DNA from: Candidatus Latescibacterota bacterium
GTDB lineage: Bacteria > Krumholzibacteriota > Krumholzibacteriia > WVZY01
NCBI GenBank assembly: GCA_020352495.1
Contig: CP070677.1
Span: 3,678,924 to 3,742,923 of the forward strand
Reading direction: 5' to 3'
Length of the DNA stretch: 64,000 nt
Shown: positions 6,076 through 26,924 of the stretch, piece by piece
How positions within the stretch are numbered: position 1 is the first letter of the stretch
How the letters are laid out: every line of letters begins with the position of its first letter
Program-made: the position numbers and the translations under genes
The notes under the pieces: model-generated
What the model saw: the letters and a program-made list of their open reading frames with translations, nothing else
What the model was told of the DNA's origin: nothing
The model's database searches: none

Positions 6076-9000
6076 CTATTTTAGAAGCACCATCTTCTTG
6101 GTCTTGGAAAAGCCCTTCGCCACCATCATGTAGAAATACACACCACTCGAGAACGGCTCCCCCGTGTTGTTCGTTCCGTCCCACGTCGCCTTGAATCCTT
6201 CCACACGAGTAGTCTGCTCCTCGTTGACCAGTGTCTTTACGAGCTGCCCGGCGACATTGTAGATCTTGAGCGATACATGAGTCTGGTCTTGTATCCCATA
6301 ACGGATCGTTGTCACTGGGTTGAATGGATTCGGGTAGTTGTTGTCGAGATAATTCGCCAACTTTGGCGTTTGACCGATCCCCGTTGGCTCGGGGACCGCA
6401 TTATCCATCCAGAGAAGAATGTCACGTAGGTGGTCCACCCGATCCATCGGCACCCCCGGTCGATCGTCCCCAATAAAGTGATAACTGAATCCCGAGAGAA
6501 TCACACGGGCATCTTGATCGCCTGATTGCGGATCCTCGACGACCTGCGAGATCACGGCGGCACCCAAACCGGGAGCGTATGAGAGTTCGGTCACCGCCGC
6601 CCCTGTCGGCTGTAGCACGTCAAAATCATTGATCACCGGGCAACCGCCCCGGGCGACCAACGTGTCGGGACCAGCCACTAGATCGTCGAATGCCGAACCA
6701 AGTTCCGCGACGAGCAAAGGTGAGATTGCGATACCTTGATTCGTGTGATTACCCGAAACAAGTGTGAAGTTTATATAGGTGTTTCTCATGGCAACGGCGT
6801 TGGCCCCTGCGAGATTATCCCATTCGTACGCGACATCGTCCCCCGAGATGTAGACCCCGGCGTTGCCCGTCCGTTGTTCTAAGAATTGATGCAACGCACC
6901 AAAATCATCCGACTTCTCAGGACCGCTTCCCCCGTTTGGCGGGCTCCCGTCGCCAATCGTCCCCGATGCCAGATCGCCCGAACACCAGATGATTTTCTTA
7001 TAGACGGGGTCCGGATCACCAACGAGCTGGAGCTGGACGTTTTGCACGCGGGACGCCAGGCCGTTCCCAACCACAGACGACGGACCGATCACATCAAAGA
7101 TGTCCACATTCGATGTGAACGCCGTATAGAACGGACCCTTTTGCCGTTCACCCGTGAGGTTCATTAGACCCAAGTCTCCGAACGAAAGATCGAAATAGAC
7201 CTCCGCCGGGCCGCCTCGATCATCCGTGTCGTCGACAAGGAGAATGTCACCCTCGATTTCACGACCACTATCGGGGAGGATCATAAACTCACATGGTTCG
7301 TGGCACACCTCCTCCCAACTGAGCGTCTGGTGTTTCGCACCCTGACCAATACGATATGCCCTCTTGCGGTGCCAGTATGTCGGAAGACCACTGTTTGGCA
7401 CTGCTTCGAAGAAGTAGTAGATCGTATCCCCCGGTACAAAGGCACCGGTGTTGCCGGTCTGATCTTCTACCGTATGCAGACCGTTTGCGATATCCATCAG
7501 GTCGATGCAATACCGATCCGCCACCAACCCGCCGCCGGTGCTGTACACAAAGTCCATCTGGTACTGCCAGTAGGTCCATGGACCACACGCCCGAGTCTGA
7601 CCCGTAAAGGGGTAACGTAGTGTCCCGGTCATTGGATCGCCCGGATATCGTGTGTTGTCCGGTGACTCGATGCTTGTCGGAGTATGACCCGGTGTGCAAA
7701 GGTGTGACCCGACTCGGACCCAGCAGTACACCTGGGGCGGCACGCTCGGATCCGGATCCTCCGCCGGAGGATTGAGCGGCGTGTAGACAAAGCTCGGGTC
7801 ATCGACCTCGACCACCGCCGAGTCCCCAGGAATAATCGTCGGCATGGCGTTTGGCAGCATATCGAAGGCCATATCCGCACGCGCGTGGCTCTGGCACGTG
7901 ATATCACCATCTTCGGGGAAGTTGTCTTGAAACAGATCGAAGTGTCGGACAGACCACGCTGGCCCTTGCTTATCGACACGGACGAGTCTCACATCGTCTA
8001 GCAGCGGCGCTTGACTGTGACAATAGCCATATGTTCCTATTCCGCACCAGTATTCGCACATATCCCAAGCGCCCAGTGCGATCTGAACCATCTCTGCATC
8101 GGGGTCAATAAATCCGCCCACCTGGAACGTGACACGTTTCCAGTCCTTTTGACCGCCATAGTAGACAAAATTGTAATCACGCCACGGACCCGCGCATCCA
8201 TCCACCCAGGAACGAACGTGCCATACGTAAAAGATCATATAGTCCAGTGGGAGATCCCGATAGACATCAAACTCCAGGATTGCCTCCGACGCCGAGGCCG
8301 GTATGGGACTGCCATGAACATCTGTCGACCAGTCCAGTGGGGGGGACCAGATTTCGTTTTTCAGATAGAATCCGTTGCCCGGGGGATAAGGAACTACCAA
8401 TTGTTCGGGGTGACCGCCACAACCGTAGTAGAACGGTGACCCGTTGAAAAATCCCCAGAGACAATACTTCTTGAACTTGCACGGATCCTCTTGAAGCACA
8501 TTGGCACCGTGGTACAAACCGCAGTAATCCCCAAACCCCGACGGCACCGTGGCCATCCAGGTACCATCCGCTGTCACGGTGGCACCCACCGGTTCGTCCT
8601 CAAAATCCTGGTAGTCGATGACACCTGTGGCATCGGTGAGGGTCAACGCATCTATGATCACTGCGCCATCTGTCAGATGAAGGCCATCCTCGTCGGACCA
8701 CCCGCTGTCCGATTCGAACCGAAAACGCATGTGCAGATTATCGCCGATGTCGCTCGAACTCACGACGACGGTATCGGTCAGTTCGCCAATTCCATCGTAA
8801 AAACCGACTCCCCCATTGACGAGGGAGAGCGCTAGCCACCTATCGTAGTTGGTGTCCCAATAGTCGAGATACGTGCGGTCATACCCGGCTTCCGAATCCC
8901 ATCGGATCATGTACGAGACGATCACGTCACCAACCACAGGGATCCCGACACATTCGAAAAACTGTTCCCAGTTGTTTCCGTAACCGGGTAGATCGGTCCA

Positions 9001-9405
9001 ACGACAGTACGGGGATTCGGCAGAGGGTCTTGCGCCACACCAGAGCGACTTCTCCCCCTCGAGAGGAGTAAGCCGCCCAAAGTTCCCCCCATTCAAACCG
9101 GCAAAGTCATCGACGTGGAAGAACGTATCCAGTTGAGTGGTGCGATCGACACCAAACCACCCCTGTGCGTCGCATGTCAGGTCCTCATCTTCAAACGAAT
9201 ATTCGGCGAGGACATAGGTATCCGCCGGAGACGACGTAAAGAGTCCCTCCGGGTATGTTAACAGGCGACTGTCGATATCTGAGGGTGTTTCATAGACATG
9301 TCTCTCGACAGGAGGAGATTTGCCGACGTCGCGTTCGGCGAGAACACCTGGCGTCATCACCAGACACATCGTAACAACGATCCCGCGTAGCACTACCGTC
9401 TTCAT
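6076..9405 (-). CDS. large secreted protein with T9SS type-A C-terminal sorting domain (paralog C of three)
   Basis: 1109 aa; N-terminal signal peptide (MKTVVLRGIVVTMCLVMTPGVLA); C-terminus NYPNPFNPVTTIRYGIQDQTHVSLKIYNVAGQLVKTLVNEEQ...VYFYMMVAKGFSKTKKMVLLK; shares conserved N-terminal Cys-containing jelly-roll-like module and a ThuA/GATase1-like module with the two upstream paralogs; no HEXXH. Confidence 0.85.
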   Translation of the reverse strand: MKTVVLRGIVVTMCLVMTPGVLAERDVGKSPPVERHVYETPSDIDSRLLTYPEGLFTSSPADTYVLAEYSFEDEDLTCDAQGWFGVDRTTQLDTFFHVDDFAGLNGGNFGRLTPLEGEKSLWCGARPSAESPYCRWTDLPGYGNNWEQFFECVGIPVVGDVIVSYMIRWDSEAGYDRTYLDYWDTNYDRWLALSLVNGGVGFYDGIGELTDTVVVSSSDIGDNLHMRFRFESDSGWSDEDGLHLTDGAVIIDALTLTDATGVIDYQDFEDEPVGATVTADGTWMATVPSGFGDYCGLYHGANVLQEDPCKFKKYCLWGFFNGSPFYYGCGGHPEQLVVPYPPGNGFYLKNEIWSPPLDWSTDVHGSPIPASASEAILEFDVYRDLPLDYMIFYVWHVRSWVDGCAGPWRDYNFVYYGGQKDWKRVTFQVGGFIDPDAEMVQIALGAWDMCEYWCGIGTYGYCHSQAPLLDDVRLVRVDKQGPAWSVRHFDLFQDNFPEDGDITCQSHARADMAFDMLPNAMPTIIPGDSAVVEVDDPSFVYTPLNPPAEDPDPSVPPQVYCWVRVGSHLCTPGHTPTSIESPDNTRYPGDPMTGTLRYPFTGQTRACGPWTYWQYQMDFVYSTGGGLVADRYCIDLMDIANGLHTVEDQTGNTGAFVPGDTIYYFFEAVPNSGLPTYWHRKRAYRIGQGAKHQTLSWEEVCHEPCEFMILPDSGREIEGDILLVDDTDDRGGPAEVYFDLSFGDLGLMNLTGERQKGPFYTAFTSNVDIFDVIGPSSVVGNGLASRVQNVQLQLVGDPDPVYKKIIWCSGDLASGTIGDGSPPNGGSGPEKSDDFGALHQFLEQRTGNAGVYISGDDVAYEWDNLAGANAVAMRNTYINFTLVSGNHTNQGIAISPLLVAELGSAFDDLVAGPDTLVARGGCPVINDFDVLQPTGAAVTELSYAPGLGAAVISQVVEDPQSGDQDARVILSGFSYHFIGDDRPGVPMDRVDHLRDILLWMDNAVPEPTGIGQTPKLANYLDNNYPNPFNPVTTIRYGIQDQTHVSLKIYNVAGQLVKTLVNEEQTTRVEGFKATWDGTNNTGEPFSSGVYFYMMVAKGFSKTKKMVLLK

Positions 9406-9426
9406 CTTTCTCGCCCCCTCGGTCCC

Positions 9427-12498: not shown

Positions 12499-12521
12499 AA
12501 CCCTGCCCCTCCCTAAGATCT

Positions 12522-15500
12522 CTATTTTAAGAGGACCATTTTCTTTGTGTGTGCGAACCCCTCCGTCGCAAGTTTATAAAAATACACACCGCTCGAGACC
12601 GGCTCACCGGCGTTGTTTGTGCCGTCCCAGGTCGCTTTGAATCCGTCTCGGCGAGGTGCTGCCTGCTCTTCGTCGACCAATGTTTTCACCAACTGACCGG
12701 CGACATTGTAGATTTTCAAAGACACATGACCGCGCTCCTCAATGCCGTAACGAATCGTCGTCACCGGATTAAAAGGATTGGGATAGTTGTCATCGAGGTA
12801 ATTCACCAGCTTTGGCGTTTGGTCGATCCCCGTCGGTTCGGGGATCGCATTATCCATCCAGAGGAGTATGTCACGGAGATGATCCACACGATCCATCGGC
12901 TGTCCGGTTCGATCGTCGCTGATATAATGATAACTGAACCCCGAGAGAATCACATGCGCATCGGCGTCCTGCAATTGCGGATGAGGTGTCAGTTGTGAGA
13001 GCACCGCGGCGCCCGATCCGTTGGGAAAATTGATTTCTGCCACAGACGCCCCGGTGACTTGCAACACATCGAAGTCGTTGATCGTCGGGCACCCGCCGTA
13101 GACATGCATCGAGTCCGGGCCGCCCACGGGATCATCAAAGATCGATCCCGGCTCGGCAACGAGCAACGGCGAGACAGGCTCACCGAGAGCGACATGCCGT
13201 CCCCATGCGACGCCGAAATTCATGTAGTCGTTTCGGAAGTCAGCCGCGCTACCGCCCGCATAAACCCAGTAATCGGAAACATCGTCACCCGACAGGTATA
13301 CGCCGACGTGATCTGTCCTCTGTTCGAAAAACTGATGGAGCATCGCAAAATCATCCGCCTTTTCGTTCTCGAACCCGCCACCTGGGGCGATGTGGAGGTT
13401 TCCCGTATTCCAGATGATCTTCCGATAATATGGAACGATCTGTTGCGAGACGTCCGAAACCCGTCCGCCGGGGCCAACGCTCAGGTCGTATGCAGGACTC
13501 CGCACATCGTAGCGGTCGGGCTTGATTCCAAGGATGTCATACGCCGTATCAAAGTACGGCTGCACACCGTGCTGGTCGCAGTCATCGACATAAAGAATGT
13601 CGGTGATCCCGGCGAGCGCATTGGCGGGAAGACACGTCATCTCCATCGGTGCCGCCCTCACCGCTGCCTCCGAGTGTGACGCGCCCGTGAAACGGCTCCA
13701 GTAGGTTGTGTTGCCTACAAAGTCCCGGGCCGAAAAGTAGAACCAGATCGTATCCCCCGGCGTGTAGAGACTGTCATTCAGATCGGCACAGAACTGATTG
13801 TCTACGGGGTCTCCCGACGTGTCGTAGACAGTGTCACAACGAAGAACCGTCCATCCGCCACCCGCGGAGGCAACAGGCCACCGCGCAACATCCCCCGAAA
13901 TCGCGGCACCGGATTTCGTCGGAGAAACGTCCTTAACATGAAGGTAGACCGCGGGACCACTTCCCGGAATCCCCGTGGAGTGGTAGTCGAGACCATAGTT
14001 CGGCTCTGAGACGGTAACAACCGTCGAGTCTCCCGGCAGAATATTGGGATTTGAATTCGACAGAACATCCAATGCCATGTCCACACGGGCGGTTCCCGTC
14101 ACCGTCCCGTCCGAGGCGAAATTGTCCTGAAAGAGATCGATATCCCGTACCGACCACACCGGGCCGCCAAAATCGACCCGGAGGAGCCGAACATTATCGA
14201 GAAGCGGGGCGTGATGATGGCAGTTGAATTCCGCGTAGACCCCACACCAGTACTCGCACATATCCCAACAGCCAATCGCGATCTGTACCTGCGACGCCCC
14301 GGGTTCGATATGACTACCGACCGACAACGTCCTCTGGTACCAATCCAATTGCCCACCGTAGTACACAAAGTTGTCGTCCCTCCAGTACCCGACACAGTCA
14401 CCGACATGTGAGCGGACGTGCCAGATATAAAACACGAGTCCATTGAGTGGCAAACCCCGATAGGTATCGAATTCGAGAACAACCTTCGATGCGGAAGCCG
14501 GCACCGGGTTGCCGTCAATATCGTGCGTAAAATCGATCCACGGTGACCAGACCTCGTTTGTGAGGTACTGAGCGTATTCGTCCGGCCCGTACGGCGGCAC
14601 GAGCTGTTCGGGGTGCGGCGTACAGAAACCCGTATCCGGCGACCCGTTGAAAAATGTCCAGAAGCACGATATGTTGTACCGACACGGGTCCTCTTGGACA
14701 ACCTCTGTGCCGTGCAAGAGCCCCGCATAATCGCCAAACCCGGGATTCACAGAGGCAGACCAATCGCCATCCGAAGTGGCCAACGCCCCAACGGATTCGG
14801 ACTCGAAGTCCTGATAGTCCACCGTCCCCGTCGCATCCATGATCGTGAGACTATCGATAATCACCGCTCCATCGGTTGGCCAGAGACCGTCTTCGTCTGA
14901 CCAACCCGAATCCGAATAGAAATGAAATCGGAGCTTGAGTGAACCTCCGGTCGCGGCGGAGTCGATGACGACAGACTCGCTTAGCTCACCGATCCCGTCG
15001 TAGTCACCCGCACCTCCGTTCACGGGGAGATCCGACCATTCCGAAGAAACCTCATCCCAGTATTCGAGATATACGAAATCGTATCCCGGTTCGGTATCCC
15101 AACGGATCTTGTACGAGCACACCGCATCACCAACAACTGCGAACTCGGTGGACTCAAAGAACTGTTGCCACTGGTTTCCATAGCCCGGGGGTGTCTCCCA
15201 GTTGCAGTACGGCGAGCCTTCCGTTCTTGCGCCGCACCACAGTGACTTCTGACCCTCGAGAGGAGTCAACCGTCCGTAGTCCCCACCATTCAAACCGGCA
15301 AAATCATCGACATGGAAAAACGTGTCGATCTGCGTAGTAGCATCGACCGTGACCCACCCCTGTGGATCGCAAAGACCGAATTCGTCGTCAAAAGAGAACT
15401 CGGCAAGAACGTACGTATCGATCTGTGCGGAAACAAACGTGGCTTCGACTCTCGATGGCGGCCGATCGCTTTGGCTACCGAGAACGGTGGGGACCCTTCT

Positions 15501-15596
15501 CGACTGGGTGGTGTGCTTGTCAGCAACACGCGCCATCAACCCCGATGCCGTCGCCAGCACAACAACGGCGACAATAACACCAGATGTTTTTTTCAT
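12522..15596 (-). CDS. large secreted protein with T9SS type-A C-terminal sorting domain (paralog A)
   Basis: ORF 12522..15728 but it overlaps the upstream gene; likely start at MKKTSGVIVAVVVLATASG (15596), leaving a 23-nt spacer; CTD ends ...FAHTKKMVLLK; about 60-70% identity by eye to neighbours over long blocks (DTYVLAEFSFDD, WSDEDGLWPTDGAVIIDSLT, CLPANALAGITDILYVDDCDQ). Confidence 0.85.
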   Translation of the reverse strand: MKKTSGVIVAVVVLATASGLMARVADKHTTQSRRVPTVLGSQSDRPPSRVEATFVSAQIDTYVLAEFSFDDEFGLCDPQGWVTVDATTQIDTFFHVDDFAGLNGGDYGRLTPLEGQKSLWCGARTEGSPYCNWETPPGYGNQWQQFFESTEFAVVGDAVCSYKIRWDTEPGYDFVYLEYWDEVSSEWSDLPVNGGAGDYDGIGELSESVVIDSAATGGSLKLRFHFYSDSGWSDEDGLWPTDGAVIIDSLTIMDATGTVDYQDFESESVGALATSDGDWSASVNPGFGDYAGLLHGTEVVQEDPCRYNISCFWTFFNGSPDTGFCTPHPEQLVPPYGPDEYAQYLTNEVWSPWIDFTHDIDGNPVPASASKVVLEFDTYRGLPLNGLVFYIWHVRSHVGDCVGYWRDDNFVYYGGQLDWYQRTLSVGSHIEPGASQVQIAIGCWDMCEYWCGVYAEFNCHHHAPLLDNVRLLRVDFGGPVWSVRDIDLFQDNFASDGTVTGTARVDMALDVLSNSNPNILPGDSTVVTVSEPNYGLDYHSTGIPGSGPAVYLHVKDVSPTKSGAAISGDVARWPVASAGGGWTVLRCDTVYDTSGDPVDNQFCADLNDSLYTPGDTIWFYFSARDFVGNTTYWSRFTGASHSEAAVRAAPMEMTCLPANALAGITDILYVDDCDQHGVQPYFDTAYDILGIKPDRYDVRSPAYDLSVGPGGRVSDVSQQIVPYYRKIIWNTGNLHIAPGGGFENEKADDFAMLHQFFEQRTDHVGVYLSGDDVSDYWVYAGGSAADFRNDYMNFGVAWGRHVALGEPVSPLLVAEPGSIFDDPVGGPDSMHVYGGCPTINDFDVLQVTGASVAEINFPNGSGAAVLSQLTPHPQLQDADAHVILSGFSYHYISDDRTGQPMDRVDHLRDILLWMDNAIPEPTGIDQTPKLVNYLDDNYPNPFNPVTTIRYGIEERGHVSLKIYNVAGQLVKTLVDEEQAAPRRDGFKATWDGTNNAGEPVSSGVYFYKLATEGFAHTKKMVLLK

Positions 15597-15619: not shown

Positions 15620-18600
15620 CTACTTCAAAAGGACCATTTTCTTTGTCTGCGTGAACCCCTTTGTTGTGAGCTTGTAGAAATACACGCCGCTGGCAACCGG
15701 TTCGCCGTTCGAATTCGACCCGTTCCAATGCGCTTCAAAACGTCCTGCAGGACGCGACCTATCGACGAGCACTCGGACCAGCTCTCCCCGTACGTTGTAA
15801 ACAGCGAGACGCACATGCGAACGCTCGGGAAGCTCGTATCGGATGGTCGTCACCGGGTTAAACGGATTTGGATGATTCTGATAAAGCACATACCGGTCGG
15901 GGAGCTTCGGGAACATCGCCGGCATCCCCGTCGGAATGGTTTTGAAGTCGATGATGTCCCCATTTTCCGACCAGGTGAGTACCCGACTATTCATAAAACG
16001 GTCGAAGAGAAACCTTACCTCCTCCCCTGGCTCCGGACCCTCATCCTCCGGTGTAAACGGATCGTCCCGGTACACGGGCATGATCCCAAAGCACCCTTCC
16101 TCTGTGACCACAAACTCACCACAGATCACACTGTCCTCGTCAATCGCCTGGACCAACGTTCCAACGGATATCAACGAGCCATCGATGACGACACTATCGC
16201 CCCACAAATTCACCCACTCGGTGGTTGGCGTGACCGTTACAGGACCACTGGGGACTTGAGCGTCTGACGTCGTAAACGGGGGATCGGATGGATACGCGGG
16301 GAGACCTGGGTACGTGAGTGTTCCGGCCGTGTTGACCTTGAGCCAGTACCCGTGACCCGGTGTCATCGTGATAAGCGTATTCTGCCCCGGCGGCCCCGAA
16401 GGATCAAAGGTGAGATAGTCATTTCCATCGTGTCCGAGAACGAGATCGGTCGTGGACAACACGGTCTCCAGGGCATGCGCGACCGAGTCTTCCTGGTACG
16501 GGACATAGCCAATCAGATTGTAACCGCTCGACAGGGCCACCGGACTCTGCGAGGCAATCGCATCACCGGCAAGTGAGAGCGTGTCATCCTGTGACATCTT
16601 GACCCACACCCCATCTGCGTGGTCGACATCGAAAAGCGTCTGGAACTCGGGTGCGAGAGACGGCGCAAAGGCACGCCCGCCCGTGTCGAATCCATGCGCC
16701 ACGATCACATTTTCGATTATGGGAGCGAGAATCGATGCGACCGAATCGTTGCCGACGTCGGCATTCCAGCTCAATAGATTCCACCCGGTCTCGAGCGGTA
16801 GCACGACGGTCCGCGTGAGCGCGGAGTCGACATCGAGAGTTACGGGTACCGTCACAAACCCTTGTGTGGGGACATTGCTTTGGATGCCCACATACCCTTC
16901 ATATGTGCCCGGCTCGAGTAAGGACGCATCGATTGTGACCGCCAATTCGATCGTGCTGCCTGGATCAAGCGTCCCGACGAGCGGTGACGCGGTTAGCCAG
17001 TCGATCGGAATACCCGTTGAGATCCATATTTCATCCCACCACGCCTCGGAACCCGCGGTGAAGTTGTAAAGATCCAAACGGTAGACGTCTTCCACCAGAG
17101 CGGCATTTCGGAACGGAATGCCGCTCTGGATCAAGTTGCCCCCGACATAATAATCAAACGTCTTGGCGGTGAAATCGATGTTGTTGAATTCGATGTGATA
17201 CCACGTGTCGGCGGTGTAGACAAACGACTCACTGCCGCCGACATCCACGTTGACATAAAAGGTGCTGTCTTGTTTGGCAAAGAACCAGATGACTTCCCGT
17301 CCCTGACTGTCGCGGAACACAAAGTATGCGTCGTTCGTCGTTGTCGATCCGGATCGGATCCAAAAGCTTATCGTTCGAAGCTGGACGGCTCCGAACTCGC
17401 GGTAGATCCCATCAAAATGCCCGACTCCCGAGTTGAACTCGTGATAACTCATGACGCTACCGTCGGCCGCTGTTTGATCGGTTACCTCTTTGGTGCCCGT
17501 GCCACCGCCATCGAACCATCCGTCGTAGTCCCCATCCTCGAAGTTCTCCAAGAATGCGAGGCTCGAGTCGAACGGCGATGACAAGATCGGGCGTATCCCG
17601 GAGAGCGGTCTTATGTGTCCGGCGGTTTCATACGGTTCCAACTGCGACACCGACCCCGACGATGTCAAGAATCCACCGAAGACGTCCGATCGATATCCAA
17701 CACGACCTTGCGAGCGATCGGCCATTTCCACCGTGCCAACCGGACTCGGATTACTTCCGGCAGTTCCGAAAACATAGATCCGATACTCGAGCACCGATCC
17801 CCCGGGATTGGATAGATCGAGCGGTCTCAACGACGCCTCGCCTGGTAGGAGCGTTTCATAAATCGAGTCAGGTAACACGGCCACGATCGGTGGCTCCACA
17901 CCCACACCCTCGAGGTCCACGGTAACGATATTCTCGTCCGGATCATTGCTCTCGAGTGTCAATGTTCCCGAGATCGATCCCGACACCAAAGGAGCAAAGG
18001 TCACCGTCACATCCCTCGTCCATCCCGGAGGAATATTCAGTTCGGTCGAGTCGGCGGAGAAGCTCGGGTTGTCGATGCTGATCGAACTCACGATCAGTGT
18101 CGCATTACCCTCATTCGAAACGGTGAGCGTTTGATCGTCCGAGAGACCAACAAACAACGAGTCGTAAACAAGCACGGTGTCCGAGAGCAAAATGTCCGCA
18201 GCCGGCATGACTTCGAGATGAAGTGGAACGATAGCCACCACGCTGTCCCAGGCGGTGCTTCTAATGGCGATTTCGGCGTCGAATTCATCTTCCGGCAAAT
18301 TCGTCGCGTCGAATGTGACATCGATCTGCTCGCTCTGCCCGACCGGAATGCTCCCCGAGTCCGGCAGAGCCCACACCCAGCCAATCCCCGGTGTGAGCCA
18401 TTCCATCGCTTGTTCGCCAAATCGCTGGTTATCGGCTAATAGCAGATAGTCATCCCCAAAAAGCTCCTCGGCCGTGGCGATGATCTTCCCGTCGCCCGCG
18501 ACACTCGCCGCGACCACCGGTGTGTTGTTGATATCCCCGATGAGAAGCGTTGCCGGTTCCATTACCGCAGAGAGGTGGGCATGTGGACCCGGGAGTTCAA

Positions 18601-21046
18601 TTGTGTTGACGCCAAAGGTTGTCTCGTGGGGGTAGATGTTCGATGTGGTGCCCGCAGTCGAGCCTCCCGTATCGTACACGATTCCCGCGCCGAGCTGGCC
18701 GAGGAGATCGTTGTAGCTCCCGATCCCCGGTTGCTGATCGCCAGTGAGAAACAATCCGCCGCCACCAAGGACCCAATCGGCCAAGGTGTTTCTCTCCGCG
18801 GCGGTGAACTCTGAGGTCATCTCGACCGTCCAGAAGATGTCATAGTCGGCGAGAAGCGTGGGTGTAATCGAAGACGAGCTCTCGACAAATGTCGCACCGA
18901 GATCGATAAGACCGGCGACAAAGATACTCCGGTTGCTCGAGTCGTGCTGACCGTGCGAAAGATCATAGATAATTCTCACGCCTGTGAGATCACTCGACGA
19001 AAACGGCCCAAAATCGCCGGGACCGAGGCGAATGGGGTCAGCAGAATAGAACGCGTCCTCCTCGGTCCCAGTCGGAAAAGCGTGACGGCGAGTGCCAAAC
19101 ATACTCGCAGGTGAGCCTCCGCCATCGGAACGGCGTCTGACCTTTAACGTCCAGTCAAACGCCGACTGCCCGAGATTCTCGATCGTCAAAACTTGAGTGG
19201 AGACCTCACCGGTGTAGAGACTCTCACTCAGTGAATCCGGTGTTACCGTGATATTGACCGGTTCCCTACCCTCACCTTCCAACGACACAAAGACCGAGTC
19301 CTCGTCGGGGTCATTGCTAATGATCGTCATAGTCCCGGTGATGATGCCCTCGACACTTGGCGCAAACGTCACGACAAGTGGCCAGCTTCCTCCCGGCTCG
19401 ACATCAAAGAGTGTGTCACTCGGCGTGAAATCCGGCTGGTCGACTTCAACGGCCACGTGGAGTGTGTCCGCGCCCACATTGGAAACGGTCAACGTGTCAT
19501 CGACCGAGTCCCCCACGGCAACAAGACCAAACGACATCACCGTGTCCGACACGGCAATGAGCGGCACGGCGGTAACAAACAGTCGGAGTGGAACGAGGAT
19601 CTCCGGTTCGGACGGATGATTCGTGACGACACGTGCCGTGTCTTCGTAGTTGCCTCCCAGTCCCGCCGCGTCGAACTCGATCTCGACAACCGCGCCGTAA
19701 CCCGGGTTGAACACACCCGTATCCGGATTGGCGCTCACCCACGGTTCGGTTGTGTTGACACCCCACGAAAGCGTCATGCCGCCGATATTTGTTATCGTGA
19801 GATTCTGCGACGATGTCTGACCCGTGTATAGCGAATCGATCAGCGAGTCCGGTGCCACCTCGATGTTCGGCGGTGGTGAGACAAACCACCGTGCAAACTT
19901 CAAAGACGTCTTGCCCCCCGCGAGGTCAAAATCACCCCCGGCAAACACCTCTCCCGTTGCGCTGGGAGACGCGGCAAATGTCCACCCCGACCCACTGCTA
20001 AAACCCAAACCGCTCCCAAATGTCGACCACTGCGACCCGTCCCATTTCGCAATCCGGTTCGCTGATATCCCCCCTGCCGACGTGAAGTTTCCGGCGATAT
20101 AAACATCGGTACCCAACGACACAACCGACATCACTCGTTCGTTTGCTCCGCCATCTAGATTGTCCCAACTCGACCCGTCCCACTTGGCCACGTTTGTGAC
20201 GGTCACAAAATCCTGTGTGAAATTGAAAAGCCCCCCCACATAGAGATCGGTCCCCACGAGGGCCATCGAACGCAACTCACCGTTAAAGAACGCATCCAAT
20301 GCCGACCAGTTGGTTCCATCCCAGCGGGCCAGACTTAACGCGGGCACACCCCCCGCCGCGGTGAAAAGGCCACCGACGTATAGCTGGCTAGCGTCTGCCG
20401 CCATGGCGTCCCCAAAACCGGTCGCGAAGCCAGGGTGTGTCAGTCCGCCATTGAGACTGTTCCAACCTGCCCCATCCCAACGGGCGATTCCGTTCACTGT
20501 GATGCCGTCGGCCTTCTCGAACGATCCGGACACATAGACATCTCCGTCAAAGACCTCGAGATCGTCCACAGGGGGAACGGTGTGGTAGTCACTGAGACCG
20601 GTCCCCATCGCATGCCACTGGAGTCCATCCCACATGGCGACGTGCTGGCAGGGGACACCTCCTGCGTTGACGAACGACCCGCCGATATAAACGTTGCCTT
20701 CATGGACGAGAATCGCACGAACCTCGGCCGAGGCGCCCGATACGCCGCTCCCCATTGCATACCACTGGGTCCCGTCCCATCTGGCGATGCCGTTGACCGT
20801 CAGGCCACCGGCGTGTTGGAACTGCCCGCCGACATAGACATCGGCGCCGTCGACCACGATCGCTTCGACGCGTCCGCTGAGTCCCAGCGCATTGAAGCGC
20901 GGGTCCCAGAAGACATCATCGGGATCGTTGAGGGATTCCAGGACGACTTTCTCGGAGGTTGAGGAGATGTCGGGGGGATTCTGAAAAACAACCGCGAGAC
21001 AAAAAAAGACAAAGAGGGACAGACGTAGTATCAGCCGGCGTTCCAT
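15620..21046 (-). CDS. giant secreted multi-domain protein: beta-propeller repeats + repeated Ig-like (ASH/CARDB-like) domains + ThuA/GATase1-like module + T9SS C-terminal sorting domain
   Basis: 1808 aa; signal [21 protein letters not shown]; about 7 repeats of IARWDG.xW..LG.G....V.A....G..LYVGG.F..AGG; several LTV/ITN.G...L repeats ([23 protein letters not shown]..., [23 protein letters not shown]...); CTD [41 protein letters not shown]...[22 protein letters not shown]. Confidence 0.85.
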   Translation of the reverse strand: [1808 protein letters not shown]

Positions 21047-21740
21047 GTTGCCTGCCTTTCACGGGAGAGGGAAGCTCACTTCTAAACCCGTCTATGCAGG
21101 GTGCGTTGCCACGGCTGCAGGGGTATACTACTCAATGGCAGTATATTATACCATATTTCGACGCGAATTTACAGCCCTAAAGAGAACGGTCGCACCGTCT
21201 CCAGCCACTTCGAGATCGGACTCTCTATTCCGTGACAGGATCCGTTACGACGCGTTGTTTTGAGAGATCCCTGGATCATTCACGGGCCGTCAGGCCGCCT
21301 CGAGGTCGAATCCGCACTTCCCAAAAACCAACTGGCAAAACAAAGAAACGAGCGACCGTCGCTCTCGGTGCCCTGGCTCTCGGAACCCGAATTGGCCAAT
21401 TCCAGCCAGAGCGGGGTAAGGGATTCCCTTACACGCCCCTACGGGAGTCCCTTACCCCAGCCGCCAAAAAGCCAATTGCCTGCTACCCCAAACCGCGCCC
21501 GCCTCACGACATTTGAAAGCGTTAAATTCAAGGCTGGGTCTGCCAATTCGGACCCAGAAACACACGTGGCGAGATGCTCATAAATTGTGTATTGAAAAAG
21601 AGATAAGCCATTTTTGAAACACATGCTTCCGGGGGACGCGGCATCCCCTACGGCATCTTCTCGACCGACCGGGGCCCGTGGCATCCCGATTGCCTTGCAT
21701 GTCGTCAGAGCGACAGATCAGACCTAAGAGGACCAATGAC

Positions 21741-22142
21741 ATGTCCAAAACACGCACATCAACCACATCCCTTGCCCTGGTGGCTCTTCTGGCAGCTATC
21801 GTGTTGACCGGCTGTGCCGGTTCAGACACGTTGCTCGGTCCCGACCCAAACGCCGCCGCGGTGACTGTCGACTGGGCGTGGGAAGAGTGTCCGGGGTGGG
21901 AGGAGGCATGTGACCAAGGTCGTCAAGAGATATGTTTCCAGTGTCCGCCAGATGCCGATTGGAAAAACCCGGGACAATACAATTCCTGTATAAGGAAGGC
22001 TTTGAGACAGTACCTGCAAGAACTGAGTGACTGTTTCTCGAACGAAGAATTAGACACACTCCGTGATTGTATATTGGACGAGAACTGGGAATCCATTGGA
22101 GACCAGGAGGTGAATCGAAAACAAAAGTTCCGCGATGAGTAA
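21741..22142 (+). CDS. small Cys-rich secreted lipoprotein (hypothetical)
   Basis: ORF 21678..22142; likely start MSKTRT with AAGAGGACC RBS; signal + lipobox LAAIVLTGCAGS; 8+ Cys incl. ICFQCPPDADW...YNSCI. Confidence 0.5.
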   Translation: MSKTRTSTTSLALVALLAAIVLTGCAGSDTLLGPDPNAAAVTVDWAWEECPGWEEACDQGRQEICFQCPPDADWKNPGQYNSCIRKALRQYLQELSDCFSNEELDTLRDCILDENWESIGDQEVNRKQKFRDE

Positions 22143-22167
22143 CTGCCGGAGGCAGACATTCGCAGAG

Positions 22168-22208
22168 CCGTCAGGTCTGGATCGCGGGCCCAGGCCTGAC
22201 GGTTTTTT
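22168..22208 (+). terminator. rho-independent terminator
   Basis: 13-bp stem CCGTCAGGTCTGG/CCAGGCCTGACGG (one G.U) with 8-nt loop followed by TTTTTTT; 26 nt after stop at 22142. Confidence 0.6.
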
Positions 22209-22396
22209 TGCCCGAAGTCGATGACTCCCACGGGTTGGCCGGCCGCTGACGAATTCCGCTTTGCGTTCAATGGAGATCGCGTCCAAAAAATTCCGGCGCC
22301 GTTTGCCCGCCGCAGGTATTCTGCTATATTTGAATCGTAAGGCTCTCGCCGGCCGGAAGGCCGGAGGTTGACACCAATCTGAGCAAAGTGGCGTGT

Positions 22397-22499
22397 TGTC
22401 GGGACTGGGAGTTGGTGTCGACGCGACTTCCGCAGCGCGCGCTTCTTTACCCGCGCGTGCAAGGACCAGGAGCGGAGAGACCAACTCCCAGTCCCGACA
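22397..22499 (+). repeat. structured intergenic element, copy D (candidate ncRNA/hairpin repeat family)
   Basis: perfect 20-bp outer inverted repeat TGTCGGGACTGGGAGTTGGT/ACCAACTCCCAGTCCCGACA enclosing GACTTCCGCAGCGCGCG-loop-CGCGCGTGCAAGGACCAGGAGCGG, homologous to cores of copies A-C. Confidence 0.5.
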
Positions 22500-22518
22500 T
22501 TCACAAACGTGGTATGGC

Positions 22519-22824
22519 ATGAGAACGTTAACCTCCATCTCGACCGTTCTCGCGATCCTAGCCTCGTTGCTTCTCCAAGGGTGCATTCTGGGCGACGACG
22601 AGGGGATTGTGTCGGGCATGGGAACCATAACATTCCTCGATTTCGAGGGAGGATTCTACGGGATTGAGGCCGACAACGGCGACCATTTCGATCCGGTCAA
22701 CCTCGAACCGGAGTTCCAAGTCGACGGTTTGCGTGTGAAGTTCAGGGGTAGGATCATCGAAGGCGCCAGCACCCACATGTGGGGCAGGCTGTTAGAACTG
22801 AAGATGATCAAAAGACTCGAGTAA
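22519..22824 (+). CDS. small lipoprotein (hypothetical)
   Basis: ORF 22393..22824; likely start MRTLTSISTVLAILASLLLQGC (lipobox) 20 nt after element D; about 101 aa. Confidence 0.5.
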   Translation: MRTLTSISTVLAILASLLLQGCILGDDEGIVSGMGTITFLDFEGGFYGIEADNGDHFDPVNLEPEFQVDGLRVKFRGRIIEGASTHMWGRLLELKMIKRLE

Positions 22825-23448: not shown

Positions 23449-26400
23449 TTACAGATCAAACCCAAACGCGAGTGTCAGATAGTGGCTCCACCCTCTCTCC
23501 TGCCGGATGTCGAGGGGCAGCGCTCCAAATCCGGTGAGCGAGATCTTCACCGGATCGAGCGAATATGCCGCTACCCAATTGACCGCGGTGGGAAAAAGGT
23601 AAAATGAACCCAAGCTCAGACGGAGGTCGACGCCCACCGAGTTCTTGAAATTTCTAGCCGCAAAATCTCTCTGGCCCCACGCAATCGCCGTCTCATAGAA
23701 GATGCCCGCGTACAGATCTCTGAAGTAGAGATTGAGAAATTGTTTGTCGATGTTTCGCCAAACCGGGAACCGGTACGTGAGGCTCCCCAGAGCGCCTTTT
23801 TTGTCTCCAATGCTGTAGTACGTATATCCCCGAATACCATCCCGCCCGCCAAGATACGTCCAGAAAAAGTCATCGACACTACGATCGATAAAACTGCCAA
23901 AGAGCCGCAGTCTCAACGAATGCCGTAGATACGGCAGGCCAATGTACTCCCGCCAGTCGACGGTGAATCTGTGATATGGAACCTCTGAGAGCTTCGCTTT
24001 GAATCCGTACTCGAACTCACCGGTTATAAAAAGTTTGTTCCACGATTTCAGATACTCGAACATGATCTGCCGGCCGCCCCGCGGATTGATATCCGTGTCC
24101 ACCGCGGGGGCGATGCCCCTGTACGTCCATCGAAAGATGCCCTCGTTACCCTCGTAGTACTTCCAACCACCTTTGAACGATCCACGATACTCACCGTATT
24201 TGAATTCGTCACCCTCGAGGTGCACTCTGTACTCACTGGGTTGCCAGTGGGCCGAGATCTCGTGAAGCCGTGTTGGCGAGTAACGCTCCGACAACTCAAA
24301 TTTCAAGCCAAAACTCGCCTGCCAGAGGTCATACTGCGTGTCAAAAACAAACTCGCTTCCCGTCTCCTCATCAAATGTTCGATCGGAGTGGAATTCGCGG
24401 AGTCTGATGAAATCGACAAACAACGCGGGGAAAAAGAAGTCCACGTTTTCGGTAAGAAACTTTGGATAAAAGTCCCGAATCTCGTACGTGAAATACAAGT
24501 CGAACTCCTCGTCAGTTCCATACGACCCACCGGCAAAGAGCGACTGTTTGTCAAGAATCTCGTTGCTCATCATAAACAGACCAAGACGGAATTTGTTGTC
24601 CCAGACCACGATGCGAGGAAACAACTGGAATGTGGTGAAGTTCCATTTGTAGTTCGAACTCGGGAGCTCCCCATCGCCCCCCGGCGAGTCGCTGGGACGT
24701 TGTGCCGTGGACGGGGCTCCGTTGGACACCGAATCCCCAACAAAACGGCTTTCGGCTCCTTCGCCGTTTTCAGCCCGCCCGGAATCGTGCGACAGCCAAC
24801 TCGGCGATACCGCAGTCGACCCGTCTTCGACATTCGAATTGGCCGTCACTGGGTTTTTGAGAAACGCACATTCGTCATACGGCTTCACGTCGCGCGTCTT
24901 GAACGTGATCGAGTCCATCGTCTCGACCGGGCCCGCGTCACCTTCCACAAAATAGACACAATGACCATCACCGCTGTAATGACTGTAAGCGAGCGCCCCA
25001 TCACCGGGTGACTGGTCGGGCATAAACGCGCCGCCGACGACATTTGTGTGTTTTTTGATCGATCCGTCTTCGAGAGCGAGTTCGTAGATATTGAAAATAC
25101 CGGTGCGGTCACATGCAAAGATGATCCCCCGTCCGTCCCGCGTCCACCGCACATCCCGCTCGTCGTTTGGGGTTTGGAGTATGTACCGGAAGTCCGTCCC
25201 GTCGGCCAATATCATGGCAACGTCGCGAGTCCCCTCCCTGAAGATGCCAAAAAGGATCTTTTCGCCATCCGGTGAAAAGTGCGGATTGTAGAACTGTGTT
25301 CCCATCTTTCCCGAGTAGAGTTCCCGCAGGTTCTCACCATATGCATCCATGACGACAATACGATGCGTCCCGTCGTTGTTTCTGACGCCGACGATCTTCT
25401 TTCCGTCGGGTGAAAAATCGGGGTCACCAATCCGCGCACCTTTGGTGAGCCGTTTTTCCTTTTTTGTTTCGAGATCGTAGACAAAGACATCATTCACCGT
25501 GGAACCGTAGTGATCGACCTTGTGTTTGCGTGAATAGAGAAGTTTTTTTCCGTCTGCAGAGAACTGTGGAGGCGAGCTTAAGCCACCTTTTATGCGCTTT
25601 CTGTTTTTCCCAAAGCGATCGATGACATAGAGGCTCGTTACCGCGTAGTCAGTTCCCTTGTTCGAAAGAAACGCTATCTTCCTCCCATCCGGGCTAAACA
25701 CCGGGGCCACGTTCAAGTAACTCTCTTTGGAATCCCCTCCGACGAGGAGGCTTCCCTTCCGGAAACGCTCACGAACATCGGCCGTCTGAGTCTCGAATCG
25801 GCTTTTGAGGTGCGCTTTCCAGTCGTCGTAGAGCTCCTTGCCCTTCTTGCCCGTGACCTTTTTTAGCGCGCCATCCATGTTGAGCCGGTTTGGAGCACGC
25901 AGGGCGCGTGTGATCTCCGCAATAGAGTTGGGTCCGTATGTTGCCACGATGTAATTCGTCAGCCCAAAACCATGGTCGTACACCTGTTCACCCCTCATCG
26001 ACGATTTTCCAAAGAAACCCATTTCGTCGTATGTGAGCATCTGGTCCTCGAGCACAGCGCACCTGAGGATCATATCGCGGTGAGAGTCCCAACAATCGTA
26101 TTTGAGATTTGGCGTCTGATACTGCGAGACACCCTCGGCAAACCACGGCGGATACACGATCCCGGAAAACGGATAGGAAACGATGTGATCGGGATACCCC
26201 TGAAGCACATCGGGGCGTCGTTCTTTCTCGAAGTGGATCAGCTGAAAGTAGATGGCCGGCACCCGCGTTGTCATTTTCATCGCGGCCTGAATGGAGATGA
26301 TGTGAGCGTACTCGTGAGTGACGACGTTTCGAATCCACTCCGTCGTACCTCGGTACCCGAACTCCAGATTCGTCGCCCAAATCTCCACCTTGTTGTCATA

Positions 26401-26694: not shown

Positions 26695-26924
26695 CTGGAT
26701 CACTGAGGGGTAGACCAATAGCTGTGAAAGGCAATCGGGTCAAGATCCTTCTTTTACAGGGGTCGGGAGAATCAGGCTGGTCAATTCCTCTCCAAATCCA
26801 CTTACTTAATGATACGTCGCAACTTATGAAAAGTCAACAGGTATGCGACTTGGTCGTTTGACAAGGGCGTCGGGACCCGAGATCTAACACAGGGCACGAC
26901 GGGTATTCCGAATCGTCGCCGACA

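What the first reader, a model, noticed from the sequence alone, without database searches (positions are those of the whole stretch)
15620..21046. 1808-aa protein architecture: about 7-bladed propeller (IARWDGxxW repeats) + multiple Ig-like domains + ThuA-like module + CTD
The N-terminal 400 aa contain 6-7 repeats of (I/V)A(R/K/M)WDG.xW..LG.G....V.A....G..LYVGG.F..AGG, resembling delta-60/Kelch-like beta-propeller blades. These are followed by at least four Ig-like domains with the (T/I)LT(V/I)xNxG pattern (ASH/CARDB/choice-of-anchor-D style), then a ThuA/GATase1-like insert, then further beta-rich domains before the T9SS CTD. The combination is not one I recognise from characterised T9SS substrates (gingipains, SprB, chitinases).
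Basis: partly seen in the sequence, partly recalled or inferred. Interest (0 to 1): 0.6.

Follow-up and report, generated by a model that had tools for sequence, protein, structure and literature searches.

The report
Giant modular T9SS surface-binding protein
This is a real 1808-residue gene for a large secreted cell-surface protein of an uncultured Latescibacterota bacterium, built from a propeller, five antibody-like domains and two probable ligand-binding modules with no recognisable enzyme site, so it is most likely a binding or adhesion protein rather than a new enzyme.

Summary
The ORF (window 15620-21046, minus strand, 1808 aa) is real. It is identical to an NCBI MAG protein from Candidatus Latescibacterota. 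A 1958-aa orthologue is 45-47% identical along the aligned regions, with the domains in the same order.

Domain order:
- signal-like N-terminus
- 7-repeat Rax2/DUF5122 propeller
- five Ig-like domains: three BACON/ASH-like alternating with two choice-of-anchor-D
- a three-domain pre-CTD cassette (X1-X2-Y) with no family model
- type-A T9SS CTD

The "ThuA-like insert" matches DUF4350/GIFT (GldG/IFT52-type), not ThuA. It is nested inside the third Ig domain. A conserved LamG/ConA-like domain is nested at the same loop of the fifth Ig domain.

Residues 134-1641 contain no cysteine, so a Cys-His-Glu triad is excluded.

The X1-X2-Y cassette matches at least 5,521 protein cluster representatives. 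It nearly always ends about 92 aa before the C-terminus of otherwise unrelated T9SS cargo.

The gene heads a tight four-gene cluster with three paralogous ~1,020-aa T9SS proteins of unknown fold. That linkage recurs in two other genomes.

Best reading: a non-catalytic, surface-displayed ligand-binding protein. It is a new domain combination within a known kind, of moderate interest.

The parts
15620..21046 (-). Whole gene, 1808 aa plus stop codon
   Evidence: ORF list and translation. 100% identical to P0001, 'choice-of-anchor D domain-containing protein [Candidatus Latescibacterota bacterium]'.
20981..21046 (-). Signal-peptide-like N-terminus (residues 1 to ~22, MERRLILRLSLFVFFCLAVVFQ)
   Evidence: Read directly from the sequence. 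The orthologue P0274 starts with a comparable hydrophobic leader. No signal-peptide predictor was available.
19868..20914 (-). Beta-propeller of seven repeats (residues 45-393) plus the closing FARWF strand
   Evidence: Pfam Rax2, 52.4 bits against 28.8; DUF5122 below threshold. Repeat alignment and pairwise E-values.
19574..19867 (-). Ig1, intact BACON/ASH/MSP-like Ig domain (residues 394-491)
   Evidence: Motile_Sperm and Cep192_D6 hits. Serves as the template that the split Ig3 and Ig5 align to end to end.
19259..19573 (-). Ig2, choice-of-anchor-D / HYDIN-VesB Ig domain (residues 492-596)
   Evidence: HYDIN_VesB_CFA65-like_Ig best stretch 495-591; NF012200 choice_anch_D 109.8 bits.
19136..19258 (-). 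Ig3 N-terminal half (residues 597-637)
   Evidence: Joined to residues 889-947, it aligns over 99 aa with Ig1 in a single HSP (37% identity, E 1.6e-19). pLDDT 77-91 in the AF2 model.
19001..19135 (-). Low-complexity linker (residues 638-682)
   Evidence: pLDDT 21-41. Absent from orthologue P0274, where the alignment has a gap.
18383..19000 (-). GIFT/DUF4350-type alpha/beta module (residues 683-888), with no cysteine
   Evidence: DUF4350 33.0 bits against 30.4; weak IFT52_GIFT, ABC_transp_aux and DUF7408. IFT52 5fms is the best PDB match by sequence and by fold. Invariant across 12 modules: D770, H807, N873 among others.
18206..18382 (-). Ig3 C-terminal half (residues 889-947)
   Evidence: HYDIN Ig profile positions 52-86. 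Junction-spanning alignment to Ig1. The same nesting is seen in P0121, P0123, P0127 and P0274.
17894..18205 (-). Ig4, second choice-of-anchor-D Ig domain (residues 948-1051)
   Evidence: Cep192_D4, DUF1573 and Ig_CFAP65_4th hits at 952-1049. 49% identical to Ig2.
17765..17893 (-). Ig5 N-terminal half (residues 1052-1094)
   Evidence: Joined to residues 1344-1405, it aligns with Ig1 over 105 aa (30% identity, E 5.6e-15).
17018..17569 (-). LamG/ConA-like jelly-roll domain (residues 1160-1343) nested in Ig5. The linker 1095-1159 lies at window 17570-17764.
   Evidence: Laminin_G_3 at 22.5 bits (below the 27.6 cut-off) and Sialidase-like_CBM. It is the most conserved part of the family: 45-65% identity in 18 genome loci spanning several lineages.
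16832..17017 (-). Ig5 C-terminal half (residues 1344-1405)
   Evidence: BACON_2 best stretch 1349-1391. Alignment.
16301..16831 (-). X1 and X2 (residues 1406-1582), an internally duplicated pair of ~85-aa beta-rich domains with motifs GWNLLSW / GYNLIGY and GVWVK / GYWLK
   Evidence: X1 against X2: 29% identity, E 8e-8. AF2 pLDDT 79-94. No Pfam or NCBIfam model. Widespread.
15899..16231 (-). Y domain (residues ~1606-1716), a beta-sandwich with the motif CG...FG.MPVYRDDP.T..DEG
   Evidence: AF2 pLDDT 74-88. Also occurs alone, in up to six tandem copies or near N-termini, in other proteins.
15623..15898 (-). Type-A T9SS C-terminal sorting domain (residues 1717-1808)
   Evidence: TIGR04183 35.1 bits against 23; FlgD_ig and Por_Secre_tail. 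57-64% identical to the CTDs of the three downstream genes.
12522..15596 (-). Paralogue C (1024 aa), starting 23 nt after the target's stop codon
9427..12498 (-). Paralogue B (1023 aa)
   Evidence: 74% identical to C. Weak InhA-like MAM hit, E 0.0046.
6076..9405 (-). Paralogue A (1109 aa)
   Evidence: 53% identical to B and C. The three-paralogue arrangement recurs after the orthologue in L001.

Best explanation
[quoted passage not shown] It most likely acts as a non-enzymatic, surface-displayed binding (adhesin-like or capture) protein.

Proposed mechanism:
1. Inferred: the N-terminal leader takes the protein across the inner membrane.
2. Shown: a type-A CTD is present. Inferred from characterised T9SS cargo: the CTD directs export, is cleaved off, and the mature C-terminus is attached to the cell surface.
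3. Inferred: the Ig domains and the X1-X2-Y cassette form a long stalk.
4. The stalk displays three candidate ligand-binding heads:
   - a 7-bladed Rax2/DUF5122 propeller
   - a GIFT/DUF4350 module, the fold of GldG, IFT52 and OST48/Wbp1, for which sugar binding has been proposed
   - a highly conserved LamG/ConA-like jelly roll
   The last two are each grafted into the same loop of a BACON/ASH-like Ig domain.
5. The gene is probably co-transcribed with three paralogous ~1,020-aa T9SS proteins and may act with them at the cell surface. The ligand (glycan, protein or partner) is not identified.
For: - The ORF is intact and has an orthologue with the same domain order.
- The type-A CTD scores above its curated cut-off.
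- All family hits are binding or structural modules: Rax2 propeller, HYDIN/ASH, choice-of-anchor D, BACON_2, DUF4350, Laminin_G_3. No catalytic family appears.
- The GIFT assignment rests on DUF4350 at 33 bits, IFT52 as the best PDB match by sequence (E 0.025, two co-linear stretches) and IFT52 as the best match by fold (E 2e-5, probability 1.0).
- DUF4350 has been linked to GldG and to the flavodoxin-fold beta-galactosidase trimerisation domain (PMC5898192). GIFT domains are proposed sugar binders (PMC7226087).
- There is no cysteine in residues 134-1641.
- Nesting is shown by junction-spanning alignments and is conserved in homologues.
- GIFT and LamG recur together in several other proteins.
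- The LamG-like domain is 45-65% identical across distant lineages, which points to a conserved function.
- The X1-X2-Y cassette sits at a fixed distance from the C-terminus under many unrelated passenger domains. This fits a generic stalk or anchor role.
- Intergenic gaps of 21-23 nt and repeated linkage with the A/B/C family occur in L001 and L002.
Against: - No ligand or activity was tested, and the binding role is inferred from family membership alone.
- The second half of the GIFT module was modelled poorly (pLDDT below 45). The fold match is therefore only moderate (TM 0.49 normalised to the target).
- Invariant D770, H807 and N873 could form a catalytic site rather than a binding site.
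- Laminin_G_3 and IFT52_GIFT both score below their curated cut-offs.
- The presence of T9SS machinery in this genome was not checked, because only 64 kb was available.
- In 23 metagenome loci, A/B/C-family arrays occur without a GIFT-LamG gene, so the partnership is not obligatory.
Confidence: 0.55

Rival explanations
1. It is a surface-anchored enzyme. The GIFT/DUF4350 module, or the LamG-like domain, would be catalytic, using a non-cysteine site such as Asp770/His807. Possible activities include glycoside hydrolase, esterase or amidase. The remaining domains would target the enzyme to its substrate.
For: D770, H807 and N873 are invariant across 12 modules that are only 35-50% identical. The AF2 model of this segment has an alternating strand/helix pattern. 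As I recall, the wider class-I-GATase-like superfamily contains enzymes such as DJ-1/PfpI and ThuA. Many proteins carrying the same pre-CTD cassette are enzymes: S8, M6 and C11 peptidases and a beta-lactamase fold.
Against: There is no Cys nucleophile. The closest families (DUF4350, GldG-type ABC_transp_aux, IFT52 GIFT) have no known catalytic activity. No catalytic family hit appears anywhere in the 1808 aa. The few invariant polar residues are equally compatible with a binding site.
Confidence: 0.15
2. It is a scaffold or organiser. Its heads would bind partner proteins rather than environmental ligands. Candidates are the co-encoded A/B/C paralogues or secreted peptidases. The result would be a cellulosome-like surface complex for polymer or protein degradation.
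For: The four-gene cluster is tightly packed, and the linkage recurs in L001 and L002. The GIFT domain is known from IFT52, a subunit of the multi-protein IFT-B complex. One homologue, P0123, carries what look like dockerin repeats after the GIFT-in-Ig unit (by eye only). A/B/C arrays lie beside T9SS papain-like C1 peptidases in L020 and L025. Peptidase and peptide-transporter genes flank L001.
Against: There is no direct evidence of interaction. A/B/C arrays mostly occur without the GIFT-LamG gene. The dockerin assignment was not tested against a family model.
Confidence: 0.15
3. It is a motility adhesin or surface-coat protein, analogous to SprB/RemA or an S-layer protein, with a GldG-like module tied to gliding.
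For: It is a very large repetitive T9SS cargo. It contains the GIFT module named after the gliding protein GldG. Fold matches of the C-terminal domains include S-layer and adhesin stalks.
Against: The CTD is type A (TIGR04183), whereas SprB-class adhesins, as I recall, use a type-B CTD. No SprB repeat family hit appears. No gld genes were seen among the window ORFs scanned. The fold matches are generic tandem beta-sandwiches with TM below 0.2.
Confidence: 0.05
4. It is an assembly chimera, a fused gene or a pseudogene, and the architecture is not real.
For: It comes from a metagenome-assembled genome. Two short homologues, P0122 and P0124, have tails that look frameshifted.
Against: The reading frame is uninterrupted for 5.4 kb. 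The same protein is deposited from a 4.3-Mb contig. Independent orthologues share the domain order: P0274 in JGI, P0127 in Chitinivibrionia and a 1794-aa protein in L002.
Confidence: 0.02

Closest known systems
GIFT domain proteins (GldG of Flavobacterium johnsoniae, IFT52, OST48/Wbp1) and Pfam DUF4350 (PF14258)
   Same: The residue 683-888 module matches DUF4350 above its cut-off. It weakly matches IFT52_GIFT and GldG-type ABC_transp_aux. Its best solved-structure match is the IFT52 GIFT domain. It has no catalytic cysteine. Sugar or partner binding is proposed for the family.
   Different: Here the module is grafted into a loop of an Ig domain of a secreted T9SS protein. It has no transmembrane segments and no ABC-transporter partners. 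Similarity to IFT52 and GldG is remote (12.6 and 11.1 bits).
ThuA (PF06283) and catalytic class-I glutamine amidotransferases
   Same: At most a shared flavodoxin-like / GATase1-like fold. Clan membership is recalled from memory. One search supports the flavodoxin-fold link through the beta-galactosidase trimerisation domain.
   Different: No ThuA hit at E<=10. No cysteine in the module, so no Cys-His-Glu triad.
Characterised type-A T9SS cargo (for example P. gingivalis RgpB and HBP35, and P. intermedia cargo)
   Same: A C-terminal type-A CTD, which in characterised cargo is cleaved and glycan-linked. As I recall, a beta-sandwich domain commonly precedes the CTD in those cargo too.
   Different: No protease or glycosidase domain. 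The CTD is preceded by the ~310-aa X1-X2-Y cassette, which is absent from Pfam and NCBIfam. The organism is Latescibacterota, not Bacteroidota.
Choice-of-anchor-D / HYDIN-ASH / PapD-like and BACON Ig-domain surface proteins
   Same: Five such Ig domains form the backbone.
   Different: Two of the three BACON/ASH-like domains are split by 250-aa nested domains at the same loop. The orthologue P0274 has all three split.
Rax2 C-terminal beta-propeller / DUF5122 propeller proteins
   Same: Seven WDG-type repeats with a Rax2 hit at 52 bits. Hundreds of bacterial surface proteins share this propeller at 35-44% identity.
   Different: Those proteins share only the propeller, sometimes with Ig domains, covering 15-30% of the query. 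The propeller is dispensable in the family, because the L002 orthologue lacks it.

Membership tests
T9SS type-A cargo | C-terminal sorting domain matching TIGR04183 or PF18962 | tested here: met
   TIGR04183 35.1 bits against a cut-off of 23. FlgD_ig 34.3 against 27. Por_Secre_tail 26.4 in the full-length scan and 28.5 when the C-terminal 403 aa were scanned alone.
T9SS type-A cargo | N-terminal Sec signal peptide | tested here: inconclusive
   A charged N-region followed by a hydrophobic stretch was seen by inspection. The orthologue has a clearer leader ending in TQA. No predictor was available.
T9SS type-A cargo | T9SS machinery encoded in the same genome, and experimentally shown secretion | not testable with these tools
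   Only the 64-kb window is available. No por/gld/sov genes were seen among the window ORFs scanned.
Catalytic class-I glutamine amidotransferase / peptidase C26-like | Cys-His-Glu triad with the Cys in a nucleophile elbow | tested here: not met
   Cysteines occur only at residues 16, 133, 1642 and 1652. None lies in residues 683-888.
ThuA (PF06283) | Match to the family profile | tested here: not met
   No ThuA hit for the isolated module at E<=10, nor in orthologue P0274.
DUF4350 (PF14258) | Score at or above the gathering cut-off of 30.4 bits | tested here: met
   33.0 bits for the isolated module; 28.2 bits within the full-length scan. Orthologues score 32.5 (P0127) and 32.8 (L002 protein).
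GIFT domain (IFT52_GIFT PF23355 / GldG ABC_transp_aux PF09822) | Profile match, or clear structural superposition on a solved GIFT domain | tested here: inconclusive
   The profile scores of 12.6 and 11.1 bits are far below the cut-offs. IFT52 5fms is the top PDB hit by sequence (E 0.025) and by Foldseek (E 2e-5, probability 1.0, TM 0.49 normalised to the target). The model has a mean pLDDT of only 55.
Rax2-type beta-propeller (PF12768) | Profile match above cut-off and a repeated blade motif | tested here: met
   52.4 bits against 28.8. Seven repeats, 30-60% identical over their aligned stretches.
Kelch / delta-60 repeat propeller | Match to Kelch Pfam models or to the delta-60 repeat model (TIGR02608, accession recalled from memory) | tested here: not met
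   Neither appears among the hits returned for the full-length protein (best 25 of 28 Pfam families at E<=1; all 12 NCBIfam families). DUF5122 scores only 20.4 bits against 27.
Choice-of-anchor D domain (NF012200) | Profile match above 45 bits | tested here: met
   109.8 bits in two stretches.
Laminin_G_3 / ConA-like lectin (PF13385) | Profile match above 27.6 bits | tested here: inconclusive
   22.5 bits, E 1.4e-4.

The most novel reading that the evidence does not exclude
The X1-X2-Y cassette could be an undescribed functional module tied to T9SS export or surface attachment in FCB-group phyla, rather than a passive spacer. It is widespread and sits at a fixed position before the CTD. For example, it might anchor cargo to the outer membrane or LPS, or be needed for recognition of very large cargo. 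In the same reading, the GIFT-in-Ig plus LamG-in-Ig pair would be a new extracellular recognition unit that works with the uncharacterised ~1,000-aa A/B/C protein family.
Probability: 0.2. Interest if true: 0.6.

Novelty: new variant of a known kind. Interest (0 to 1): 0.35.

Why it matters
T9SS cargo of uncultured FCB-group phyla are numerous and almost entirely uncharacterised. This case yields three concrete, testable items:
- An extracellular GIFT/DUF4350 domain, which could finally allow a ligand to be assigned to a fold shared by GldG, IFT52 and OST48.
- A recurrent insertion point in one loop of BACON/ASH-like Ig domains, which accepts either GIFT or LamG modules.
- A ~310-aa pre-CTD cassette present in thousands of protein clusters but missing from Pfam and NCBIfam. 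Defining it would improve annotation of many large secreted proteins.

The protein itself is probably one more modular surface binder and is not a surprise to specialists.

Tried and rejected
- **Word-index searches with the GIFT module** found only four close homologues, so its breadth could not be measured that way.
- **A/B/C paralogues containing a GIFT-like domain.** I suspected this from strand patterns. hhalign gave probability 0.1, so the idea was rejected.
- **A/B/C as M6/InhA-like metalloproteases.** Only a weak MAM hit was found (16.9 bits). There is no HExxH motif and no PDB sequence hit outside the CTD. This is unsupported.
- **Obligatory operon partnership.** Scanning metagenome contigs with the A/B/C profile gave 23 loci. 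None had GIFT, LamG, propeller or cassette hits in its flanks. The linkage is therefore restricted to a narrow clade.
- **Upstream region.** Rfam on the 2.4 kb upstream of the gene found nothing. The promoter and terminator scan found no more promoter-like sites than shuffled controls and no site at a useful position.
- **Structure submission.** It was repeated successfully.
- **Assembly-artefact reading.** Rejected on the orthologue evidence.
Full report
**1. Observation**

The window holds one uninterrupted ORF at 15620..21046 on the minus strand, with an ATG start and 1808 aa. The word-index protein search returned an identical sequence, P0001. NCBI names it 'MAG: choice-of-anchor D domain-containing protein [Candidatus Latescibacterota bacterium]', on a 4.3-Mb contig.

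The propeller repeat motif [IVLF][AG][RKM]W[DF] occurs at residues 87, 136, 187, 239, 286, 332 and 384 and nowhere else in the protein. Residues 45-383 divide into seven units of 42-52 aa. These are 30-60% identical over their aligned stretches (E 7e-4 to 2e-13). A truncated eighth strand, FARWF, follows and probably closes the ring; that closure is inferred.

**2. Domain anatomy**

Pfam and NCBIfam give the following:
- Rax2 beta-propeller: 52.4 bits against a cut-off of 28.8. DUF5122 is below threshold.
- HYDIN/VesB/ASH Ig: 131 bits.
- Choice-of-anchor D: 109.8 bits, two copies.
- BACON_2: 46 bits.
- DUF4350, Laminin_G_3 (below threshold) and a type-A T9SS CTD (TIGR04183, 35.1 bits against 23).

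There are five Ig-like domains in an alternating pattern:

| Domain | Residues | Type |
|---|---|---|
| Ig1 | 394-491 | BACON/ASH/MSP-like, intact |
| Ig2 | 492-596 | choice-of-anchor D |
| Ig3 | 597-637 + 889-947 | BACON/ASH-like, split |
| Ig4 | 948-1051 | choice-of-anchor D |
| Ig5 | 1052-1094 + 1344-1405 | BACON/ASH-like, split |

Ig3 and Ig5 are each split by a nested domain. When their two halves are joined, they align end to end with the intact Ig1 in a single segment that crosses the junction. Ig3 gives 37% identity over 99 aa (E 1.6e-19). Ig5 gives 30% over 105 aa (E 5.6e-15). In the AF2 model of residues 596-947, both Ig3 halves are confident (pLDDT 77-91 and 67-84), while the linker at 638-682 is disordered.

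**3. The 'ThuA-like' module (residues 683-888)**

Scanned on its own, the module matches:
- DUF4350 at 33.0 bits (cut-off 30.4)
- DUF7408, weakly
- IFT52_GIFT at 12.6 bits
- GldG-type ABC_transp_aux at 11.1 bits

ThuA does not appear even at E<=10.

A profile of the module and its two closest homologues finds the IFT52 N-terminal domain (5fms_A) as the best PDB sequence match. The E-value is 0.025, with two co-linear stretches. Foldseek with the moderate-quality AF2 model also ranks the IFT52 GIFT domains (5fms, 5fmr) first, at E 2e-5, probability 1.0 and TM 0.49 normalised to the target.

The literature agrees with this placement. Members of the DUF4350 family (arCOG01314) were linked by HHpred to GldG, and to the flavodoxin-fold trimerisation domain of beta-galactosidase (PMC5898192). 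GIFT domains (GldG, IFT52, Wbp1/OST48) are proposed sugar binders (PMC7226087, citing Beatson and Ponting 2004).

The protein has cysteines only at residues 16, 133, 1642 and 1652.

Across 12 modules from homologues that are 35-50% identical, the invariant residues are G717, L732, W739, W758, G763, D770, G788, H807, L825, L835, N873 and W883. D770, H807 and N873 are the only invariant polar residues. They could mark a binding site or a non-canonical catalytic site, and I cannot tell which.

**4. The C-terminal 400 aa**

Residues 1406-1716 have no Pfam or NCBIfam hit. The exhaustive HMMER search nevertheless found:
- 5,521 cluster representatives at E<=1e-3
- 1,678 at E<=1e-10
- 360 at E<=1e-30

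In 123 of the 149 best hits the whole segment is present. In those, it ends 82-102 aa (median 92, with one outlier at 27 aa) before the C-terminus. Of these, 111 carry the xPNPFN motif of the CTD. All 24 sampled members have Por_Secre_tail, and none has any Pfam or NCBIfam model over the cassette.

AF2 with a 24-sequence alignment gave a confident model (mean pLDDT 81). It shows four beta-rich domains: X1, X2, Y and the CTD. X1 and X2 are an internal duplication (29% identity, E 8e-8). Y also occurs alone, near N-termini or in up to six tandem copies, in other proteins. Foldseek against the PDB gives only generic tandem Ig/Fn3 stalks such as C5a peptidase, SdrD, Bap, an S-layer protein and PorZ, all with TM below 0.2.

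The passenger domains upstream of the cassette are very diverse:
- S8, M6 and C11 peptidases
- a beta-lactamase-fold hydrolase
- beta-helix proteins
- cadherin, Big_9, PKD and FG-GAP arrays

The named sources include Latescibacterota, Krumholzibacteria, Marinimicrobia, Bacteroidota and Chitinivibrionia. A Zixibacteria locus also carries the cassette.

The cassette is thus a generic, unannotated pre-CTD module. Its role as a stalk or anchor is an inference.

**5. Relatives of the whole protein**

The full-length word-index search is dominated by proteins sharing only the propeller, sometimes with Ig domains. These cover 15-30% of the query. True orthologues do exist:
- **P0274** (1958 aa, JGI metagenome, 104-kb contig) is 47% identical over the propeller and 45% over residues 436-1808, with the same domain order. 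It has an additional GIFT module nested in the first BACON-like Ig, so all three such Ig domains carry an insert.
- **P0127** (Chitinivibrionia, N-terminally truncated by the contig end) runs GIFT, Ig, LamG-in-Ig, X1X2Y, CTD.
- **P0121** (Eisenbacteria, partial) and **P0123** show the same nesting.

A scan of GTDB species genomes found 18 loci:
- L002 (Latescibacterota) encodes a 1794-aa protein with GIFT-GIFT-LamG-X1X2Y-CTD and no propeller.
- Compact GIFT+LamG+CTD proteins occur in L004 and L017.
- The LamG-like domain alone, at 45-65% identity, occurs in WOR-3, Acidobacteriota, Bacteroidota, Calditrichaceae, Zixibacteria and Krumholzibacteriia.

GIFT plus LamG is therefore a recurring pair. 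The propeller and the cassette are optional additions.

**6. Genomic context**

Three paralogous genes follow the target on the same strand with gaps of 21-23 nt:
- C at 12522-15596
- B at 9427-12498
- A at 6076-9405

They are 53-74% identical to one another. Each has a signal-like N-terminus, about 930 aa with no family hit, and a CTD 57-64% identical to the target's.

The same arrangement follows the orthologue in L001: one intact copy and two split copies, 44-52% identical to A/B/C. In L002 an A/B/C homologue lies 49 nt upstream of the GIFT-LamG gene.

A metagenome scan with the A/B/C profile returned 23 loci. Many hold tandem arrays of 2-5 copies. None has GIFT, LamG, propeller or cassette hits in its flanks. 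In L020 and L025 the arrays adjoin T9SS papain-like C1 peptidases. The linkage is real but confined to a narrow clade.

The A/B/C family remains unassigned. It gave only a weak InhA-like MAM hit, no HExxH motif, no PDB sequence match and no relation to GIFT by hhalign.

Upstream of the target lies a 630-nt gap, followed by divergent small lipoprotein-like ORFs. Rfam found nothing there. The promoter and terminator scan was uninformative.

**7. Mechanism**

What is shown:
- an intact gene
- a type-A CTD
- an all-binding-module architecture
- two nested domains
- no Cys nucleophile
- a conserved family
- a tight gene cluster

What is inferred:
- Sec export and T9SS translocation, followed by CTD removal and surface attachment, as in characterised cargo (background in PMC11969387)
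- Ig domains and X1-X2-Y acting as a stalk
- the propeller, GIFT and LamG domains acting as ligand-binding heads
- possible cooperation with A/B/C

I rate this reading at about 0.55. The rivals are:
- a non-cysteine enzyme (0.15)
- a scaffold for partner proteins (0.15)
- a motility or coat protein (0.05)
- an artefact (0.02)

**8. Comparison and novelty**

Most domains belong to a known superfamily; X1, X2 and Y match no family model. Giant modular T9SS cargo are common in FCB-group MAGs, so the protein is not categorically new. Four features are new or unannotated:
- an extracellular GIFT/DUF4350 domain nested in an Ig domain of a T9SS cargo
- the recurrent insertion loop
- the GIFT+LamG pairing
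- the widespread X1-X2-Y pre-CTD cassette

I classify it as a new variant of a known kind, with interest of about 0.35.

Noticed in passing
window 6076-15596 (-): Three tandem paralogues (A, B, C) of ~1,020-1,110 aa, 53-74% identical. Each has a T9SS CTD but ~930 aa with no Pfam, NCBIfam or PDB sequence match apart from a weak InhA-like MAM hit in B. In metagenomes the family forms arrays of 2-5 copies.
   Followed up: partly
window 15899-16831 (-), and P0125-P0273: The X1-X2-Y pre-CTD cassette matches at least 5,521 protein cluster representatives, yet Pfam and NCBIfam have no model for it. The Y domain also occurs alone, in up to six tandem copies (P0125) or near N-termini (P0130, P0140).
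   Followed up: partly
L020 7745-10267 and L025 12866-16357: T9SS-secreted papain-family (Peptidase_C1) proteins lie directly beside arrays of the A/B/C family. This hints that the A/B/C family is linked to extracellular proteolysis.
   Followed up: partly
L013 8743-15697 (Latescibacterota bin977 chromosome CP070631): A fragment resembling the A/B/C family (residues 411-750, 40% identity) lies immediately upstream of LamG, LamG, GIFT and CTD hits. This may be a different fusion of the same modules.
   Followed up: no
P0123 (JGI fragment, 346 aa): A GIFT module and the C-terminal Ig half are followed by two repeats that look like dockerin repeats (GDVNGD...ADLTYLVDFLF). This was judged by eye only.
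   Followed up: no
window 23449-26718 (-): A 1089-aa protein upstream of the target combines Peptidase_MA_2 with PD40/TolB-like and DPPIV_N beta-propeller repeats. It is probably a large secreted or periplasmic peptidase.
   Followed up: no
window 21678-22142 (+) and 22393-22824 (+): Two small ORFs divergent from the target have lipoprotein-like leaders (…LTGC…, …LQGC…). The one scanned against Pfam (21678-22142) had no hit; the other was not scanned. The 236-aa ORF at 21923-22633 (-) looks spurious.
   Followed up: partly
window 3083-4498 (+): A sigma-54-dependent transcriptional activator (Sigma54_activat plus HTH_8) lies just beyond the cluster. Two family-less ~230-aa ORFs (4548-5920, -) lie between it and paralogue A.
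   Followed up: no
P0122 and P0124: Two short homologues of the GIFT module have C-terminal tails that read like out-of-frame translation. These are probably frameshifts in the source contigs.
   Followed up: no
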